The notes beneath the pieces are model-generated. The model was not told where the DNA came from, ran no database searches, and was given only the letters and a program-made list of their open reading frames with translations. Below, piece by piece: positions 3,058-8,897 of a stretch of 24,000 nucleotides of DNA. The translations under genes and the position numbers were made by a program. The first letter of the stretch is position 1. The number at the start of each line of letters is the position of its first letter. Origin of the DNA: Clostridia bacterium (GTDB lineage: Bacteria > Bacillota > Clostridia > Peptostreptococcales > Anaerovoracaceae); assembly GCA_024684465.1 (NCBI GenBank), contig JAIKWW010000018.1:12592-36591 (forward strand), written 5' to 3'.

Positions 3058-3092
3058 ATAAAAAACAGGTGCGACGAAAACCGTCGCACCTG
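3058..3092 (-). terminator. Rho-independent terminator of the molybdoenzyme operon.
   Basis: The minus strand forms an 11-bp perfect stem CAGGUGCGACG / CGUCGCACCUG with a GUUUU loop, followed by UUUUUU. It lies 40 nt after the stop at 3132. Confidence 0.8.
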
Positions 3093-3131: not shown

Positions 3132-5519
3132 TTAGAGGTTCTTGCCAACAGACTTCAGATAGTTCAGAACCTTTTCCGGAGTCATAGGCTCTTCTTTGCA
3201 TCTGTAACCGATTGCATCGTATACAGCGTTGAAGATTGCAGAAGGTGTAGGCTGGATAGGGCCTTCGCCGGATTCCTTACCACCGTAAGGAGCAGATGGG
3301 TCGAAGGACTCTACGATTACAGCGTCAACTTCTGGCATATCCAGAGTTCCGCAGAGCTTGTAGTCATGGAATGAAGGGTTCAGCAGACGGCCGTCGTCAG
3401 CATAACGCATTTCTTCGAGGAGTGCGTTACCGAGACCCATCTGGATGGAACCGTGTACCTGACCTTCGCAGGACATAGGGTTGATAGGCTGACCGAGGTC
3501 ACCAGCTTCGGAGATGTGGTTAACATGAACGAGACCAGTGTAGAGGTCAACTTCAACTTCAGCAACCTGGCAAGTGAATCCGAATGTAGGGGAGTGACCG
3601 ATGTTACCACCCTGCTGGATACCCTTTCTTCTAGGAGGTGTGTACTGACCAGTTGTTACGAGAGGTCCGAATGCAGAGATGTACATGGAAACTACTTCGT
3701 TCCAGTCAACATTCTTTCTCTTTCTCTCATAGATTGAGTAGAACTGATAGTCCTTAACACCAACTTCTTCGCCACGGCAACCCATGATGGATGCAGCAAC
3801 AGGGAACAGCTTAGCATTAGCAGCTTCGCATGCTCTTCTGATAGCCCAACCAGTAGCATAAGTTACTCGGGAAGCGAATGTACCGAGGTCGAATGTAGTT
3901 GTTTCTGTATCTCTGGATTCTACCTTAACGTCCTCAGCTCTGATACCGAGAGTTTCAGCAGCTTCCTGAGCCATAACCATGTCGCAGCCCTGACCGATAT
4001 CTGTAGCACCGCAGTAGAGAACTACGTTGTTTTCGCCTTCGATCTTAACCATAGCAACTGAATGTGGCTTGTAAGACAGATACAGAGTATAAGAAGTACC
4101 GGAGATGTAAGTACCACCGGACATACCGATGCCCTGTCCGAACGGCAGCTTACCGTACTTGTTTTCGAAATCAGCGTTGTCACAAGCAACCTGCATGGAC
4201 TTCTTGAATTCAGAATGAGGGATGTACATCATTGAACGGCAAGTGTGGCCGGATTCAATAGCGTTGATCATTCTGATCTTCAGTGGGGACATACCCAGCT
4301 TTTCAGCTGCCATATCCATCATGATTTCCATTGCGAATCTAGGCTGAGATCCACCGAGACCTCTGTGAGCACCGCAAGTATTTGTATTAGTGTAGATCAG
4401 CTTACCAGCGAACTTAGCAGCAGGCATTACATAAGGAATGTGAGTCATACCAGCTGTGTAGAACAGTACTACAACACCCCAGGACATGTAAGCGCCTGCA
4501 ACCATGATCTGGTTGTAGTCGATACCTGTGATGTGACCATCCTTATCGAAGCCCATTCTGAACTTCATGAATGCAGGGTGACGGCCCTGGTTATGAGCGA
4601 ATACTTCAGATCTCTCATAAACAGCCTTTACAGGACGACCGATTCTGCTGGAGAACTTGGAAGTGATGAAGTCTGCAGTTGCAGCAACACCCTTACCACC
4701 GAAACCACCACCGAGGAGTGGAACTGTGATTCTGATGTCCTTCAGAGGCATCTGGAGAACCTTAGCTAACTGCTGATGAGTATAGTGAGGTACCTGGCAA
4801 GTAGCATACAGGTGCAGCTTATGCTTATTTACATCGAAGTCAGCGAGTGCTGCCTGTGGCTCGATGTAAGCATGAGTGTACTGAGACTGATAGAATTCGT
4901 CTTCGATAACTACGTCAGAGTTAGCGAGGATTGCATCTACATCACCATATGCCTGAGTACCCTGGTGAGCGATGTTGGAAGGCTTGTCTTCGTGAATGAG
5001 AACACCTGTCTCATTAGCGAACTGCTCAGACTTACGAGCATCTGTAACTACAGGGAGAAGCTCATATTCAACGTCGATGAGTTCGAGAGCCTTTTCAGCG
5101 ATTTCTTCAGTTACTGCGCAAACAGCGGCAACTGGTTCACCCCACATACGAACCTTTTCTCTTGCGAGAACTTCTTCGTTTGCTGAGTGTGCTACGATAC
5201 CGTAATCGATAGGGAAATCCTTACCGGTCAGAACGTCGAGTACGCCTTCGAGCTCGAGAGCCTTGCTGAAGTCGATGTTCTTAATCTTAGCGTGAGCGTG
5301 TGGAGATCTGAGGATCTTAGCCCATGCCATTCTAGGAAGAGTCAGGTCGCCTGTATACTGATACTTACCGGTAACCTTGGAAGGACCGTCAAGTCTAGGA
5401 ATGGATCTGCCTACTTCAGTGTATTCTCTGGAGTAATCCTTAAAATCGTTATATTTATTAGCAACTTCGAACGTCTTATTCATTCCGCTCTTGATTTCTA
5501 CATTGTAAGTTTCGCCCAT
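3132..5519 (-). CDS. Molybdopterin-binding large subunit of a xanthine dehydrogenase / aldehyde oxidoreductase family enzyme.
   Basis: The 795-aa product contains LLGGGFGGKG, AHRGLGGSQ and the C-terminal GGKESGEGP...AIFNAVYDAIG with the catalytic Glu context. Its ATG directly abuts the TAA of the upstream 2Fe-2S subunit gene. Confidence 0.9.
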   Translation of the reverse strand: MGETYNVEIKSGMNKTFEVANKYNDFKDYSREYTEVGRSIPRLDGPSKVTGKYQYTGDLTLPRMAWAKILRSPHAHAKIKNIDFSKALELEGVLDVLTGKDFPIDYGIVAHSANEEVLAREKVRMWGEPVAAVCAVTEEIAEKALELIDVEYELLPVVTDARKSEQFANETGVLIHEDKPSNIAHQGTQAYGDVDAILANSDVVIEDEFYQSQYTHAYIEPQAALADFDVNKHKLHLYATCQVPHYTHQQLAKVLQMPLKDIRITVPLLGGGFGGKGVAATADFITSKFSSRIGRPVKAVYERSEVFAHNQGRHPAFMKFRMGFDKDGHITGIDYNQIMVAGAYMSWGVVVLFYTAGMTHIPYVMPAAKFAGKLIYTNTNTCGAHRGLGGSQPRFAMEIMMDMAAEKLGMSPLKIRMINAIESGHTCRSMMYIPHSEFKKSMQVACDNADFENKYGKLPFGQGIGMSGGTYISGTSYTLYLSYKPHSVAMVKIEGENNVVLYCGATDIGQGCDMVMAQEAAETLGIRAEDVKVESRDTETTTFDLGTFASRVTYATGWAIRRACEAANAKLFPVAASIMGCRGEEVGVKDYQFYSIYERKRKNVDWNEVVSMYISAFGPLVTTGQYTPPRRKGIQQGGNIGHSPTFGFTCQVAEVEVDLYTGLVHVNHISEAGDLGQPINPMSCEGQVHGSIQMGLGNALLEEMRYADDGRLLNPSFHDYKLCGTLDMPEVDAVIVESFDPSAPYGGKESGEGPIQPTPSAIFNAVYDAIGYRCKEEPMTPEKVLNYLKSVGKNL

Positions 5520-6002
5520 TTATAACACCCCACCTTCTGCAGCGCAAGCTTCAACAGCCTCGAAAATGAGAATATAACCAGTGCATCTGCAAAGGTTACC
5601 GGAGAGAGCTCTCTTGATCTCACCTCTAGTCGGCTTTGGATTATGAGATAATAAATTATAAGAAGACATTACCATACCAGGTGTGCAGTAACCGCACTGT
5701 ACAGCGCCGTGGTTGAGGAAAGACTTCTGAATCGGGTTCATTTCGCCAGTCTTCTGATCAGCGATACCTTCGATTGTAGTAATCTTCTTGCCCTGGCAAG
5801 CCATAGCAAGTGTCAGGCATGAGAGAACAGCCTTACCGTCGATGATAACAGTACATGCACCGCAGTCACCCTGGCCGCAGCCGATCTTAGTACCTGTGAG
5901 ACCAGCTTCTTTTCTGAGTACGTCAACAAGCAGATCAGTAGGAGCAACTCTCAGTTCCAGATCTTCGCCATTAATATTTAAAGTGATTATCTGTTTTTTC
6001 AT
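5520..6002 (-). CDS. [2Fe-2S]-binding small subunit of the xanthine dehydrogenase family.
   Basis: It has two Cys clusters: GCGQGDCGACTV (plant-ferredoxin type) and CGYCTPG...CRCTGY. The SD GGGAGGTG lies upstream of the ATG. Confidence 0.9.
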   Translation of the reverse strand: MKKQIITLNINGEDLELRVAPTDLLVDVLRKEAGLTGTKIGCGQGDCGACTVIIDGKAVLSCLTLAMACQGKKITTIEGIADQKTGEMNPIQKSFLNHGAVQCGYCTPGMVMSSYNLLSHNPKPTRGEIKRALSGNLCRCTGYILIFEAVEACAAEGGVL

Positions 6003-6016
6003 TTCATTACACCTCC

Positions 6017-6892
6017 CTACTTCTTGATCTCGTCAGCGAGGTCTCTGAGGATTCTTCTTGTCAGAGCGCCGATTACATCAACTCTGTACTGAGCGGAAGC
6101 TCTAACGTCAGTGATAGGATGAACCTCAGACTGAGCAGCTTCAGCAGCCTTCTTGATAACTTCTTCGTCACCAATCTTAGTGCCCTTGAGTACAGCAGGA
6201 ACAGCTTCAGAAATGAGCGGCTTGATTGCAACAGATCCCATAACAACCATAGCGTCCTTGATAGTGTCGCCATCTACGTCTAATCTGATGCACATGTTTG
6301 CAACGTCGATTTCCATTGATCTTCTGAGACCAACGTAAGCATACTTAACGTAAGTATTCTTATCAGGCTCAGGAAGAATGATAGTCTTGATGATTTCGCC
6401 TGGCTTCAGACAGTTCTTTCTGTTACCGGTGATGAAATCTTCTACAGGAATAGTTCTTTCACCTTCCTTGCTAACGAGTACGAGCTGTGCTCTGTAGCAG
6501 ATCAGGGAAGCCGGAGTCTCAGCGGAAGGACCGGAGTTGGAGAGGTTACCACCGATGGTACCCATTTCTCTAACCTGTGGGCCGCCGATTTCGCCTGCAG
6601 CATAAGAGAATGCAGGGAACTTAGCCTGTAATTCCTTGGAGAATTCGCAGAAAGCATCAGTAGTGCAAGCACCGATTACAGCGCCCTTACCATCTTCAAC
6701 CTTGAATTCGTTGAGTTCAGGAATATGCTTGATGTCAATAACGTTTGCTGGATGAATGATTTTTTCCTTCAGCTGAACTACCAGGTCTGTACCGCCTGCT
6801 ATAACTTTGGCGTTTTCCTTAGTAGCTAACAGTTCGAGGGCCTCGTCCAGAGTTTCTGGAGCGAAATACTCAAATGGAGTTAAAATATTCAA
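6017..6892 (-). CDS. FAD-binding medium subunit (CO dehydrogenase flavoprotein / XdhB-like).
   Basis: It contains an AGGTDL dinucleotide motif and a typical N-terminus FEYFAPETLDEALELL. The track start at 6901 is a GTG embedded in the SD AAGGAGG. The TTG at 6892 has 8-nt spacing and is preferred, although the exact start remains uncertain. Confidence 0.85.
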   Translation of the reverse strand: MNILTPFEYFAPETLDEALELLATKENAKVIAGGTDLVVQLKEKIIHPANVIDIKHIPELNEFKVEDGKGAVIGACTTDAFCEFSKELQAKFPAFSYAAGEIGGPQVREMGTIGGNLSNSGPSAETPASLICYRAQLVLVSKEGERTIPVEDFITGNRKNCLKPGEIIKTIILPEPDKNTYVKYAYVGLRRSMEIDVANMCIRLDVDGDTIKDAMVVMGSVAIKPLISEAVPAVLKGTKIGDEEVIKKAAEAAQSEVHPITDVRASAQYRVDVIGALTRRILRDLADEIKK

Positions 6893-7078
6893 ACAAGCCA
6901 CCTCCTTAAAAATAAAAAATTTGTTTAGTGTCCGACATATCTGTTCCGAAAAGAACGACCCGCACCAATTTGCAGCTTGATACCGATCATAGACTTGTCA
7001 GATTGTTTATTAATTTAGATCAGACCGGAGCCCGATTAAATTACATCCTTTAAGGTTTTTGCACCCACCTAATTACAA

Positions 7079-7095
7079 TGCAAATTCCATGCCAA
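7079..7095 (-). promoter_or_regulatory. Sigma-54 (RpoN) -24/-12 promoter for the molybdoenzyme operon.
   Basis: The minus strand reads TTGGCATGGAATTTGCA, that is TGGCAT-N5-TTGCA with the canonical GG-to-GC spacing. It lies about 185 nt upstream of the first operon start and immediately downstream of a sigma-54 activator gene. Confidence 0.75.
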
Positions 7096-7133
7096 CTTAA
7101 AAATCTTTGTTAAAAAATTATTCCATATTTTTT

Positions 7134-7155
7134 AAATGTTGAGTTTTCAACATTT
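7134..7155. repeat. Perfect 9-bp inverted repeat AAATGTTGA-gttt-TCAACATTT; its function is unknown.
   Basis: Read directly from the sequence. It is centred about 50 bp upstream of the -24 element. Confidence 0.5.
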
Positions 7156-7229
7156 TTGAACTCTTCATTTAATCGTATGGTCAATTTTATTTCTCACAAA
7201 TTTTTCGCATTATGAAAATCATTATAACA

Positions 7230-7247
7230 TGTAAATTGTAGTTTACA
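7230..7247. promoter_or_regulatory. Candidate enhancer (UAS) palindrome TGTAAA-N6-TTTACA (TGT-N12-ACA type).
   Basis: The arms extend to 7 bp (ATGTAAA/TTTACAT, 7229..7248). It lies about 135-150 bp upstream of the -24 element. A third TTTACA half-site sits at 7277..7282, and TGTAAATT recurs twice at the activator's own promoter. Confidence 0.35.
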
Positions 7248-7348
7248 TTTCTGTTAACTATAATGTATAACTTTTGTTTACAGTCAATTCTCTTTCACTT
7301 TCAGAAAATCTGCGGTTTCAAAAGCCGGCATCCACCGTTTTCATAATA

Positions 7349-8824
7349 TCACTTAATATTGTACTTTTCCAGCTTTTTATACAACATAGTCCTGGAGATG
7401 TCCAGCATCCGTGCAGCCCTGGACCGGTTGCCACCACACTGTTTCAGCGCATTTATCACAGCTTCCCTCTCGTTTCTGTTCTTGACCTCACTGAGGGATT
7501 CAACCCGTTCTCTTTTTTCTTCGGAAACAGCCTCTTTCTCCTCTGCCTCTTCAGTATTGCCGTACTTTATATTCTCATTTTCCTGCAGGAAGGCTGTGTT
7601 CATTATGTAACTTTTTCCAAAGATTTCCTGTTCGGGTTCGAATTTTCTGAAATCATCCACGGTAAGTATGTTGGAACCAGTCCCTGCAACAGCTCTCTCC
7701 ACAGCATTCTGCAGTTCCCTGACATTTCCCGGCCAGTCTTTTTCACAAAGATATTCCACGGCGCCGGAGGAGATATCGCTTACATACCCGTTGGCTTCAT
7801 CGTGATATCGCTGCAGAAAGAGTTGAAGCAGCGGGTAGATATCCTCTTTTCTCTGACGGAGCGGCGGTATTTTTATAGTAATAATGTTGAGGCGGTAATA
7901 GAGGTCCCTCCGGAATACGCCTTTTTCAACCAGATAATCCAACGGCATATTGGAAGCCGCTATCACCCGGACATCCACAGGCACGCTCTCCACTCCGCCG
8001 ATCCTCTCGATTTCTTTTTCCTGAAGTGCTCTCAGCAGCTTGGGCTGCATTGAGAGATCCATCGCATTTATTTCGTCAAGAAACATACTTCCAAGGTGAG
8101 CCTTTTCAAATTTTCCCGCTCTTCCACCTTTGACCCCTCCGGTGAAGCTTCCTTCCTCATAACCAAAGAATTCAGATTCCATCAGATTTTCCGGAATTGC
8201 AGAGCAGTTCACTCTAATAAACGGAAACAGACTTCTCCTGCTGCAGTTGTGGATCGCATGGGCAACCAGTTCCTTGCCCGTTCCGGTCTCTCCCTCGATG
8301 AGGCACGAAGCGTTGGTGGATCCCGCAATGTAGATCTGCTCCCTTACACGCTGCATCTCAGGGCTGTTGCCGATGATATCATTTATTTTATATTTCGCCA
8401 TTCCGCTGAAATCGGAATGATCACTGATATAGCCGAACTCTTCCATAATATGTTCAAATCGCTCATTGAAAGCCTGAGCCTCATCCATATCACTGAAGAT
8501 GGAAGTCACCAGACAGCCGGTGATCTCATTATCGGAGTCCTTAATCGGCGTGTACTTCATGATGCCCTGAAGTTCGCGGCCCGCATTGGTCCTCATGAAC
8601 ATCTCTCCGGAAATGACTTTTCCCGTCCTGATGGACAAGAGCGCCGCAGAACCACGGATGACCTCCTCTGCGGAACGTCCCAGCACATTGCTCTCCGGCA
8701 TGCCCGTTGCGATCTGCCAGGGCTTATTTACATAAACATATCTCCCGGCCCGGTCGAGGTACGCCACGATCCCGGCCTGATTCAGAATGTTTCGAAAAAA
8801 ATCATTATTTATGAAATTGTCCAC
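7349..8824 (-). CDS. Sigma-54-dependent transcriptional activator with PAS sensor, AAA+ and Fis-type HTH domains.
   Basis: It has Walker A GETGTGKE, Walker B MFLDEI and the sigma-54 contact loop ESEFFGYEEGSFTGG (a GAFTGA variant). The C-terminal HTH reads NRSRAARMLDISRTMLYKKLEKY, and the N-terminus is PAS-like. The start is a GTG placed unusually close to the GAGGAG, so it is uncertain. Confidence 0.9.
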   Translation of the reverse strand: MDNFINNDFFRNILNQAGIVAYLDRAGRYVYVNKPWQIATGMPESNVLGRSAEEVIRGSAALLSIRTGKVISGEMFMRTNAGRELQGIMKYTPIKDSDNEITGCLVTSIFSDMDEAQAFNERFEHIMEEFGYISDHSDFSGMAKYKINDIIGNSPEMQRVREQIYIAGSTNASCLIEGETGTGKELVAHAIHNCSRRSLFPFIRVNCSAIPENLMESEFFGYEEGSFTGGVKGGRAGKFEKAHLGSMFLDEINAMDLSMQPKLLRALQEKEIERIGGVESVPVDVRVIAASNMPLDYLVEKGVFRRDLYYRLNIITIKIPPLRQRKEDIYPLLQLFLQRYHDEANGYVSDISSGAVEYLCEKDWPGNVRELQNAVERAVAGTGSNILTVDDFRKFEPEQEIFGKSYIMNTAFLQENENIKYGNTEEAEEKEAVSEEKRERVESLSEVKNRNEREAVINALKQCGGNRSRAARMLDISRTMLYKKLEKYNIK

Positions 8825-8869
8825 TCCTCACACATCCTTTGTAAATTATGATTTATATACTGTAAATTT

Positions 8870-8897
8870 ATTTTAACATTTTCATTGTCATATTCAA
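8870..8897 (-). promoter_or_regulatory. Possible sigma-A promoter of the activator gene (TTGAAT-N16-TAAAAT).
   Basis: The minus strand has TTGAAT (8897..8892) and TAAAAT (8875..8870). It is located between the htpG terminator and the activator start. Confidence 0.4.

What the first reader, a model, noticed from the sequence alone, without database searches (positions are those of the whole stretch)
6893..8824. A complete sigma-54 control module: a PAS enhancer-binding protein directly upstream of a textbook -24/-12 promoter
The minus strand at 7095-7079 reads TTGGCATGGAATTTGCA. This is TGGCAT-N5-TTGCA, with exact GG/GC spacing. It lies 254 nt downstream of a gene whose product has all the hallmarks of a sigma-54 activator (GETGTGKE, ESEFFGYEEGSFTGG, Fis-type HTH) plus an N-terminal PAS sensor. 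The promoter precedes the FAD/FeS/Moco operon by a leader of about 165-185 nt. Sigma-54 control of a xanthine-dehydrogenase-family enzyme has a precedent as I recall it: E. coli ygeV lies next to xdhABC. The PAS ligand and the inducing signal here are unknown. The GAFTGA loop is the variant GSFTGG.
Basis: partly seen in the sequence, partly recalled or inferred. Interest (0 to 1): 0.6.

Follow-up and report, generated by a model that had tools for sequence, protein, structure and literature searches.

The report
Sigma-54 switch for a molybdenum enzyme

Summary

- **Promoter.** TTGGCATGGAATTTGCA lies at 7095-7079 on the minus strand, 253 nt after a PAS / AAA+ / Fis-HTH activator gene (7349-8824). 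It lies about 176 nt before the TTG start (6892) of a FAD / 2Fe-2S / Moco operon.
- **rpoN.** A full-length rpoN is present in the genome.
- **Conservation.** 16 related loci, from Anaerovoracaceae MAGs to cultured Sedimentibacter, keep GGCAY-N5-TTGC at the same place. All carry TGTAAA-type enhancer sites upstream, and 12 have a TGTAAA-N6-TTTACA match.
- **Ranking.** A matrix built only from the other loci ranks the window site first of all 17-mers in the MAG.
- **One activator.** In six genomes (five of them 92-98% complete, the window's own 84%) this is the only sigma-54 activator found.
- **Kind.** PAS-type activators next to their sigma-54 target are the norm in Clostridia, so this is a new member of a known kind.
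- **Enzyme.** It is closest to 4-hydroxybenzoyl-CoA reductase but fails that family's tests. Its substrate is unknown.
- **New.** A two-hairpin RNA of about 145 nt (6901-7044) lies directly before the FAD gene. It has strong covariation, occurs once per genome, and has no Rfam match. Its function is unknown.

No transcript data could be obtained. The scan had not seen this on other DNA.

The parts
8840..8878 (-). Two near-copies of the enhancer palindrome (8840-8857 and 8861-8878), 21 bp apart, just upstream of the activator gene. They are candidate autoregulatory sites at a sigma-A-type promoter.
   Evidence: Three of the nine one-mismatch TGTAAA-N6-TTTACA hits in the whole MAG lie in this locus. 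Similar sites precede the activator gene in 5 of the 11 other loci scanned, and one in L027 was seen by eye. No GG-N10-GC is found there.
7349..8824 (-). Sigma-54 enhancer-binding protein, 491 aa. Layout: PAS (about 13-110), AAA+ (150-317, with GETGTGKE, GSFTGG and FLDEI), lid (323-394), acidic linker, Fis-type HTH (452-488).
   Evidence: Pfam hits and motif positions. It is the only genuine PF00158 hit in the MAG. The best NCBIfam hit is PrdR at 362 bits, below its 795 cut-off.
7264..7282 (-). Degenerate second enhancer site, TGTAAA-N7-TATACA.
   Evidence: Read. Most orthologous loci have two good copies 24-46 bp apart.
7230..7247 (.). Perfect enhancer palindrome TGTAAA-N6-TTTACA, centred about 145 bp upstream of the -24 GG.
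   Evidence: It is the only perfect match in the 2.06-Mb MAG, against 0.12 expected. A TGTAAA-N6-TTTACA match is present in 12 of the 16 loci, and the others carry TGTAAA or GTTTACA half-sites.
7109..7120 (-). A/T tract TAATTTTTTAAC, 14-25 nt upstream of -24. It may be a DNA-bending or accessory element.
   Evidence: Variants of ATTTTTTTAAC recur at this position in L027, L030, L032, L112, L116, L114, L115 and L036. Not tested further.
7079..7095 (-). Sigma-54 promoter TTGGCATGGAATTTGCA (GG at -25/-24, GC at -13/-12). The predicted start site is near 7068.
   Evidence: It is the top-scoring 17-mer genome-wide with a matrix built from the other loci. GGCAY-N5-TTGC is invariant in 16 loci.
6901..7044 (-). 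Conserved structured RNA in the leader. It has hairpin H1 (7011-7043), an AAUAAA linker, long hairpin H2 (6931-7002) with a CUGCAA loop (6970-6975), a tail and the Shine-Dalgarno sequence.
   Evidence: Covariance model R1 scores 79.7 bits here and finds one copy per genome. 15 of 22 pairs show compensatory changes, and 88.7% of cells are paired against 27-44% in slid controls. There is no Rfam match. The leader fold has a z-score of -3.1.
6017..6892 (-). FAD-binding (medium) subunit, 291 aa from TTG 6892.
   Evidence: FAD_binding_5 and CO_deh_flav_C. The GTG at 6901 overlaps the AAGGAGG ribosome-binding site. Gene calls in the orthologous loci give 291 aa.
5520..6002 (-). 2Fe-2S (small) subunit, 160 aa.
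   Evidence: Fer2 and Fer2_2.
3132..5519 (-). Molybdopterin (large) subunit. The longest ORF is 795 aa, but the real start is probably about 10 codons in.
   Evidence: Ald_Xan_dh_C, MoCoBD_1 and MoCoBD_2. The closest solved structure is 4-hydroxybenzoyl-CoA reductase alpha, 1RM6_A, at 501 bits; the next scores 253. Orthologues align from residue 5-13, mostly 12.
3066..3092 (-). Intrinsic terminator that ends the operon.
   Evidence: 12-bp stem with 8 G-C pairs, followed by TTTTTT.

Best explanation
This is a one-component sigma-54 control module.

**How it most likely works**
- The PAS / AAA+ / HTH activator, made from its own sigma-A-type promoter, binds as an oligomer to TGTAAA-N6-TTTACA enhancer palindromes 145-185 bp upstream of the promoter.
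- Sigma-54 holoenzyme sits in a closed complex on TTGGCAT-N5-TTGCA.
- When the PAS domain senses an unidentified signal, probably a substrate-related small molecule, it releases the AAA+ ring.
- The ring contacts sigma-54 through the GSFTGG loop by DNA looping and uses ATP to open the promoter.
- Transcription starts near 7068 and runs through a 176-nt structured leader into the FAD / FeS / Moco genes, ending at the terminator at 3066-3092.

**Scope**
- In this genus, and in at least three other genera of the family, this is the only sigma-54 activator found. It is also the only strong intergenic sigma-54 promoter found, so the sigma factor appears to serve essentially this one operon.

**Shown and inferred**
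- Shown here: the sequences, the domains, their conservation, their genome-wide uniqueness, and the presence of rpoN.
- Inferred: binding, looping, ATP-dependent opening, the start site and the signal.
For: - **Domains and motifs:**
- **rpoN:** intact with all three regions.
- **Promoter conservation:** the -24/-12 element is at the same position in 16 related loci (window, L026, L027, L030/L111, L112, L032, L035/L037, L113-L119, L036, L061). GGCA and TTGC are invariant while flanks and spacer vary.
- **Genome-wide rank:** a matrix from the other loci ranks the window site first of about 4.1 million positions. The six other top hits checked lie inside ORFs.
- **Enhancer:** the palindrome is unique in the genome. 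A match is present in 12 of the 16 loci, and the others carry half-sites or direct repeats of TGTAAAC.
- **Single activator:** one PF00158 protein in G000, G001, G049, G096, G106 and G161. In five of the six it lies next to this operon; in G106 it lies at a contig end.
- **Synteny:** the order htpG, activator, operon holds across the Anaerovoracaceae loci fetched.
- **Literature:** PAS-type one-component activators, TGT-N10-12-ACA enhancers and TTGGCAT-N5-TTGCT promoters are the norm in Clostridiales (PMC6615313).
Against: - There is no transcript or binding evidence of any kind.
- The MAG is only 84% complete, so other activators or targets could be missing. Five related genomes at 92-98% completeness give the same picture.
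- No strong terminator separates the activator gene from the operon, so some read-through transcription is possible.
- The second enhancer copy in this window is degenerate.
- The loop is GSFTGG rather than the canonical GAFTGA. The F-T core is kept and the variant is family-wide.
- The bare promoter pattern occurs at about chance frequency genome-wide.
Confidence: 0.85

Rival explanations
1. The -24/-12 match is not used. The operon is transcribed from a sigma-A promoter in the leader or by read-through from the activator gene, and the activator regulates something else.
For: - The bare pattern is at about chance frequency genome-wide.
- A weak sigma-70-like match, TTAATA-16-TATGAT, lies in the leader at 7013-6986, and no strong terminator follows the activator gene.
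Against: - By eye, the sigma-70-like match is not conserved in L026, L027 or L030, and it overlaps the conserved RNA hairpin H1.
- GGCAY-N5-TTGC is kept at the same place in 16 loci.
- It is the top-scoring site in the genome.
- No other strong intergenic sigma-54 site exists for the sole activator to act on, apart from a weaker one before trmL-rpoN that has no enhancer.
Confidence: 0.05
2. The sigma-54 promoter only sets permissive transcription. The main on/off decision is made after initiation by the conserved two-hairpin leader RNA, acting as a ligand- or protein-responsive riboregulator or as a processing and stability element.
For: - The RNA is conserved with strong covariation.
- There is one copy per genome, always directly before the FAD gene.
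- In L114 and L115 it is intercistronic, 2.4 kb from the promoter, so it goes with the enzyme genes and not with the promoter.
- In the window's own leader, a closing helix pairs CCUUAAAG with the Shine-Dalgarno region.
Against: - No terminator follows the hairpins.
- The Shine-Dalgarno sequence is unpaired in most single-sequence folds.
- The closing helix is not conserved outside a few loci.
- Sedimentibacter-type loci (L118, L119, L036, L061) keep the activator, enhancer and promoter but lack the RNA.
- The two layers are not mutually exclusive.
Confidence: 0.25
3. The promoter is a real sigma-54 promoter, but it is activated by a different enhancer-binding protein encoded elsewhere. The adjacent gene is a neighbour by chance.
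For: The MAG is 84% complete, so an unseen activator cannot be excluded for this genome alone.
Against: - Only one PF00158 protein is found in each of five related genomes that are 92-98% complete. In four it lies next to the operon, and in G106 it lies at a contig end.
- The pairing of activator and operon holds across 16 loci, down to 48% activator identity.
- The enhancer palindromes co-occur with it.
Confidence: 0.03

Closest known systems
PAS-type one-component sigma-54 activators of Clostridiales with TGT-N10-12-ACA enhancers (Nie, Dong and Yang 2019, PMC6615313; for example MdeR, PrdR, AdhR)
   Same: - The architecture is PAS / AAA+ / Fis-HTH.
- The activator gene lies next to its target.
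- The enhancer is a TGT...ACA palindrome; MdeR sites such as TGTAATAAAACTTTTACA look very similar.
- The promoter type is TTGGCAT-N5-TTGCT.
- That paper also reports genomes with only one or two sigma-54 regulons.
   Different: - None of that paper's 39 groups has a 4-hydroxybenzoyl-CoA-reductase-like or three-subunit Mo-hydroxylase target.
- The protein scores 362 bits on the PrdR model, below its 795 cut-off.
- This family occurs in Anaerovoracaceae, Sedimentibacter and Sinanaerobacter. These genera are not named among the distributions in that paper's Table 1.
E. coli ygeV next to xdhABC, and the clostridial DioR and MopR regulons
   Same: A sigma-54 activator gene lies beside genes for xanthine-dehydrogenase-family or molybdenum-related proteins (PMC6615313, Table 1).
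   Different: - ygeV is convergent with xdhABC and divergent from ygeW, so adjacency does not show control.
- DioR targets are ygeW-ygfK-ssnA-type genes.
- The MopR enhancer (TGATCAAAAAGTGAACA) is unrelated to the one here.
4-hydroxybenzoyl-CoA reductase (Thauera aromatica, PDB 1RM6) and the gut reductive dehydroxylases UcdCFO and Uxd
   Same: - The large subunit is far closer to 1RM6_A (501 bits) than to any other solved structure (253 bits).
- It is a three-subunit FAD / 2Fe-2S / Moco enzyme in a strict anaerobe.
- More distant versions of the operon add two acyl-CoA-dehydrogenase genes, which fits a CoA-thioester substrate.
   Different: - All three subunits score below the NCBIfam cut-offs (alpha 705 against 994, beta 128 against 404).
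- The FAD subunit is about the length of the CoxM/CutM-type chains it matches best (278-296 aa). The reductase beta subunit is not among its PDB matches at E <= 1e-20, so an extra [4Fe-4S] insertion is unlikely.
- No regulator is described for ucd or uxd in the papers read.
Known cis-regulatory RNAs (Rfam 15, including the Moco and xanthine riboswitches)
   Same: It is a structured 5' leader before a metabolic operon, with variable stems and conserved loops.
   Different: No Rfam family matches the window leader at E <= 1. For the L112 leader all four hits at E <= 5 score below half their gathering scores. There is no terminator and no conserved Shine-Dalgarno-sequestering platform.

Membership tests
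Bacterial enhancer-binding protein (sigma-54 activator) | AAA+ sigma-54 interaction domain with Walker A, Walker B and sensor II | tested here: met
   PF00158 at 215 bits over positions 1-167 of 168. GETGTGKE, FLDEI and WPGNVREL are present.
Bacterial enhancer-binding protein (sigma-54 activator) | GAFTGA loop that contacts sigma-54 | tested here: met
   The variant is GSFTGG, with the G, F, T and G positions kept. The same variant occurs in at least 74 of 120 homologues, and GSFTGS, GSFTGA and GAFTGA also occur. That F and T are the critical residues is established knowledge and was not tested here.
Bacterial enhancer-binding protein (sigma-54 activator) | C-terminal DNA-binding HTH and a cognate upstream enhancer | tested here: met
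   HTH_8 at 49.9 bits. The TGTAAA-N6-TTTACA palindrome is unique in the genome, and a match is present in 12 of the 16 related loci. Binding itself was not tested.
Sigma-54-dependent promoter | GG at -24 and GC at -12 with exact spacing, in an intergenic region upstream of a gene | tested here: met
   TTGGCATGGAATTTGCA at 7095-7079. It ranks first in the genome with a matrix built from the other loci, and it is conserved in 16 loci.
Sigma-54-dependent promoter | rpoN present in the same genome | tested here: met
   G000:C145:11876-13294 scores 418 bits against TIGR02395 (cut-off 277) and has the AID, CBD and DBD domains.
Sigma-54-dependent promoter | Transcription starts about 12 nt after the GC and depends on rpoN and the activator | not testable with these tools
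PrdR (NCBIfam NF041552) | Score at or above the equivalog cut-off, and a prd operon as target | tested here: not met
   362 bits against a cut-off of 795. The target is a Mo-hydroxylase operon.
4-hydroxybenzoyl-CoA reductase HcrABC | Alpha, beta and gamma subunits above the TIGR03194, TIGR03195 and TIGR03193 cut-offs | tested here: not met
   Alpha 705.7 against 994.55, beta 128.6 against 404.55, gamma 184.1 against 257.8.
4-hydroxybenzoyl-CoA reductase HcrABC | Beta subunit carries an inserted [4Fe-4S] loop | tested here: not met
   The FAD subunit (291 aa from the TTG start) is about the length of the CoxM/CutM-type chains it matches best (278-296 aa). The reductase beta subunit is not among its PDB matches at E <= 1e-20. 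The TIGR03195 match is split into two stretches. The loop residues were not examined directly.
Any Rfam RNA family (for the leader RNA) | Match at or near a family's gathering score | tested here: not met
   No hit at E <= 1 in the window leader. For the L112 leader the four hits at E <= 5 score at most 21 bits against gathering scores of 47-90.

The most novel reading that the evidence does not exclude
The 145-nt two-hairpin RNA at 6901-7044 is a new class of cis-regulatory RNA. It would act either as a ligand-sensing riboswitch or as a protein- or RNase-recognised element, gating translation or stability of the mRNA for an uncharacterised 4-hydroxybenzoyl-CoA-reductase-like enzyme. The operon would then be under two stacked controls: a sigma-54 and PAS activator at initiation, and the RNA after initiation. 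In these small genomes the whole sigma-54 apparatus would be kept for this one enzyme.
Probability: 0.25. Interest if true: 0.7.

Novelty: new member of a known kind. Interest (0 to 1): 0.4.

Why it matters
- **A route to the enzyme's substrate.** The module gives a defined, inducible switch for an uncharacterised and very strongly conserved molybdenum enzyme. Its subunits are 75-91% identical across loci where the activator is only 52-65% identical. It belongs to the branch that includes reductive dehydroxylases of anaerobes. Finding the PAS ligand would probably reveal the enzyme's substrate.
- **A tractable sigma-54 system.** Several genera carry one activator, one enhancer type and one target operon, and cultured relatives exist in which this could be tested.
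- **A new RNA candidate.** The leader RNA has strong covariation and no Rfam match.

Tried and rejected
- **Bare pattern as evidence.** TGGCA-N6-TTGCW has 6 hits in the MAG, and I estimate about 8 by chance. I did not use it on its own.
- **A sigma-A promoter in the leader.** The TTAATA-16-TATGAT match is not conserved in the orthologues I compared by eye, and it overlaps RNA hairpin H1.
- **A terminator in the leader.** The terminator-like hit at 6975-6960 lies inside hairpin H2 and contains its conserved CUGCAA loop.
- **H1 as a DNA operator.** This is unlikely. The apical part of H1 forms a hairpin of different sequence in every lineage, and the element is intercistronic in L114 and L115.
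- **Kissing loops.** Pairing of H1 UUGC with H2 GCAA is possible in only about 5 lineages.
- **A helix that hides the Shine-Dalgarno sequence.** It appears in the window fold but is not conserved.
- **Sigma-54 autoregulation of rpoN.** A site before trmL-rpoN is kept in the two congeners. No such site lies in the 1.5 kb fetched on either side of rpoN in four other module-bearing genomes, and no enhancer lies near it.
- **Known regulator families.** MopR and DioR of Nie et al. have different enhancers and targets. The ucd and uxd papers describe no regulator.
Full report
**What is at the coordinates**

All genes in this part of the window are on the minus strand. GG is at 7093-7092 and GC at 7081-7080. 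The pattern occurs once in the window, against 0.07 expected.

The ORF at 7349-8824 encodes a 491-aa protein. Its Pfam matches are PAS_4 and PAS_9, Sigma54_activat (215 bits), AAA_lid_14 and HTH_8. It carries GETGTGKE, GSFTGG, FLDEI and WPGNVREL.

Downstream lie three genes for a xanthine-dehydrogenase-family enzyme:
- a FAD subunit (6017-6892)
- a 2Fe-2S subunit (5520-6002)
- a molybdopterin subunit (3132-5519)

The operon ends at a strong terminator at 3066-3092. The FAD gene starts at TTG 6892, 8 nt after AAGGAGG. The GTG at 6901 overlaps the ribosome-binding site, and gene calls in the orthologous loci give 291 aa. The predicted start site near 7068 gives a 176-nt leader.

**Is it more than chance?**

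On its own, no. The pattern TGGCA-N6-TTGCW occurs 6 times in the 2.06-Mb MAG, and I estimate about 8 from its degeneracy. Position and conservation decide the matter.

I collected related loci from several sources:
- the congener G001, an Anaerovoracaceae MAG
- the species-representative genomes
- metagenomes
- exact-protein look-ups

In 16 distinct loci an activator of this family (48-65% identical where measured) is followed by the same enzyme genes. In every one, a GGCAY-N5-TTGC element lies between the activator gene and the first operon gene. In the 11 loci where it directly precedes the FAD gene it lies about 200-280 nt before the start. In the five loci that begin with acyl-CoA-dehydrogenase genes the leader is shorter, 76-125 nt in the three measured.

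Examples of the 17-mers:

| Locus | 17-mer |
|---|---|
| G001 | TTGGCACAGAACTTGCA |
| L030, L111, L112 | TTGGCATGCAAATTGCA |
| L035, L037 | ACGGCACGCGAATTGCG |
| Sedimentibacter, L119 | TTGGCATGCTAATTGCT |
| Clostridiaceae bacterium 35-E11, L118 | TTGGCATAGAGATTGCA |

The spacer and flanks differ between loci, while GGCA and TTGC never change. A weight matrix built from 13 of these sites, leaving the window out, scores the window site at 19.2 bits. That is the best of all 17-mers on both strands of the MAG. The six other top hits I checked fall inside long ORFs.

**The rest of the machinery**

- **rpoN.** It is present on another contig at 418 bits (cut-off 277) and has the activator-interacting, core-binding and DNA-binding domains.
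- **Enhancer.** A perfect palindrome TGTAAA-N6-TTTACA lies at 7230-7247, about 145 bp upstream of -24. It is the only perfect copy in the MAG, against 0.12 expected. A degenerate second copy lies at 7264-7282.
- **Enhancer in relatives.** 12 of the 16 loci have a TGTAAA-N6-TTTACA match, often two good copies 24-46 bp apart and 180-240 bp upstream. L118 has direct repeats of TGTAAAC instead, and G001, L115 and L061 carry half-sites or variant spacing.
- **Possible autoregulation.** Three of the nine one-mismatch matches in the whole MAG are in this locus. Two of them, 21 bp apart, lie just upstream of the activator gene (8840-8878). There is no -24/-12 element there, so they suggest autoregulation at a sigma-A-type promoter. 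Similar sites precede the activator gene in 5 of the 11 other loci scanned, and in L027 by eye.
- **A/T tract.** A tract of the form ATTTTTTTAAC recurs 14-25 nt upstream of -24 in many loci.

**One sigma factor, one activator, one operon**

The MAG has a single genuine PF00158 protein. So do G001, which is 96% complete, and G049, G096, G106 and G161, which are 92-98% complete and belong to three further genera. In five of the six genomes that protein lies next to this operon. In G106 it lies at a contig end, so adjacency cannot be judged there. All six have rpoN.

rpoN is found in 110 of 151 sampled genomes of the family. The leader RNA that marks this operon is found in 7 of the 151. Small sigma-54 regulons are already documented in Clostridiales (PMC6615313), so this result is tidy but not surprising.

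**What the operon encodes**

- **Closest relative.** The large subunit is far closer to 4-hydroxybenzoyl-CoA reductase alpha (1RM6_A, 501 bits) than to anything else solved; the next is quinoline oxidoreductase at 253 bits.
- **Not that enzyme in the strict sense.** All three subunits miss the NCBIfam cut-offs. The FAD subunit is an ordinary CoxM/CutM-type protein, and there is no sign of the extra [4Fe-4S] insertion.
- **A hint at the substrate class.** In more distant versions (L114, L115, L118, L119, L036, L061) two acyl-CoA-dehydrogenase-family genes lie between the promoter and the enzyme genes. This fits a CoA-thioester substrate, but that is inference.
- **Downstream genes elsewhere.** In other Anaerovoracaceae a radical-SAM-like gene follows the operon, and in three loci a MoCF_biosynth gene follows that. 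In this MAG the radical-SAM-like gene is on another contig.
- **Strong constraint.** The enzyme subunits are 75-91% identical across the six closest orthologous loci, while the activator is 52-65% identical.

**A conserved structured RNA in the leader**

Between the promoter and the FAD gene all Anaerovoracaceae-type loci share:
- hairpin H1, with a sequence-invariant base (GUAAUUUAAU...GAUUUAAAUUAAUA) and an apical stem that differs in every lineage
- an AAUAAA linker
- a long hairpin H2 whose stems differ in sequence but whose loop is always CUGCAA
- a tail, AACAAACCAAUAUCA, followed by the Shine-Dalgarno sequence

All 14 sequences fold this way on their own.

| Test | Result |
|---|---|
| Sequence-only MAFFT alignment | 13 of 22 predicted pairs show compensatory changes |
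| Model-based alignment of 16 distinct sequences | 15 of 22 pairs show compensatory changes |
| Cells paired, true structure | 88.7% |
| Cells paired, slid controls | 27-44% |
| Shuffles reaching the observed covariation score | 0 of 500 |
| Copies per genome (model R1) | one |
| Rfam, window leader | no hit at E <= 1 |
| Rfam, L112 leader | four hits at E <= 5, all below half their gathering scores |

In L114 and L115 the same element is intercistronic, between the second acyl-CoA-dehydrogenase gene and the FAD gene. It therefore belongs to the enzyme genes and not to the promoter, and it acts at the RNA level. The Sedimentibacter-type loci lack it.

I could not determine its function. No terminator follows it. 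The Shine-Dalgarno sequence is mostly unpaired in the folds. A closing helix that hides the Shine-Dalgarno sequence in the window's leader is not conserved.

A processing and stability element is my leading guess, because an AU-rich linker lies between two stable hairpins. A ligand- or protein-binding regulator remains possible.

**Comparison with what is known**

PAS / AAA+ / HTH one-component activators next to their targets, TGT-N10-12-ACA enhancers and TTGGCAT-N5-TTGCT promoters are the standard pattern in Clostridiales (PMC6615313). The MdeR enhancer sites listed there closely resemble the one here. None of that study's 39 groups has this target.

The genes are convergent, so this does not show control.

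**Verdict**

- I put the probability that this is a working sigma-54 module at about 0.85.
- It is a new member of a known kind.
- The leader RNA is the part most likely to repay experimental work.

Noticed in passing
window 6901-7044 (minus strand): Conserved two-hairpin RNA directly before the FAD gene. It shows strong covariation, occurs once per genome, has no Rfam match, and is intercistronic in L114 and L115. Its function is unknown.
   Followed up: yes
L001:807-823 (G000:C145:11181-11197) and L110, about 3623-3607 on the minus strand: A second intergenic sigma-54-like site precedes trmL-rpoN: TTGGCACAAATTTTGCT in this MAG and TTGGCATAAAAAATGCT in the congener. It may mean sigma-54 binds at its own operon. 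There is no enhancer palindrome nearby, and no such site lies in the 1.5 kb fetched on either side of rpoN in four other genera.
   Followed up: partly
window 8840-8878: Two near-copies of the enhancer palindrome lie 21 bp apart just upstream of the activator gene, and no -24/-12 element is found there. This is candidate autoregulation. Similar sites occur in 5 of the 11 other loci scanned, and one in L027 was seen by eye.
   Followed up: partly
L114, L115, L118, L119, L036, L061: In more distant versions of the module, two acyl-CoA-dehydrogenase-family genes lie between the sigma-54 promoter and the Mo-enzyme genes. This hints at a CoA-thioester substrate. The window's lineage has lost them from the operon.
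   Followed up: partly
L111-L113, L116, L117; G000:C44:17146-18009: A radical-SAM-like gene of about 291-310 aa follows the operon in other Anaerovoracaceae, and in three loci a MoCF_biosynth gene follows that. In this MAG the radical-SAM-like gene (81% identical) is on a different contig.
   Followed up: partly
window 7109-7120: The A/T tract TAATTTTTTAAC lies 14-25 nt upstream of -24. Variants of ATTTTTTTAAC recur at the same place in many orthologous loci. It may be a bending or accessory site.
   Followed up: no
window 7134-7155: A perfect 9-bp inverted repeat (AAATGTTGA / TCAACATTT) lies between the enhancer and the promoter. Similar GTTGAAA...TTTCAAC repeats occur in L116 and L033, and CAACGG...CCGTTG occurs in L114 and L115.
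   Followed up: partly
window 6892-6901: The FAD gene most likely starts at TTG 6892. The GTG at 6901 that heads the longest ORF overlaps the AAGGAGG ribosome-binding site.
   Followed up: yes
window 3132-6892 compared with 7349-8824: The enzyme subunits are 75-91% identical across the six closest orthologous loci, while the activator is only 52-65% identical. The enzyme is under unusually strong constraint.
   Followed up: partly
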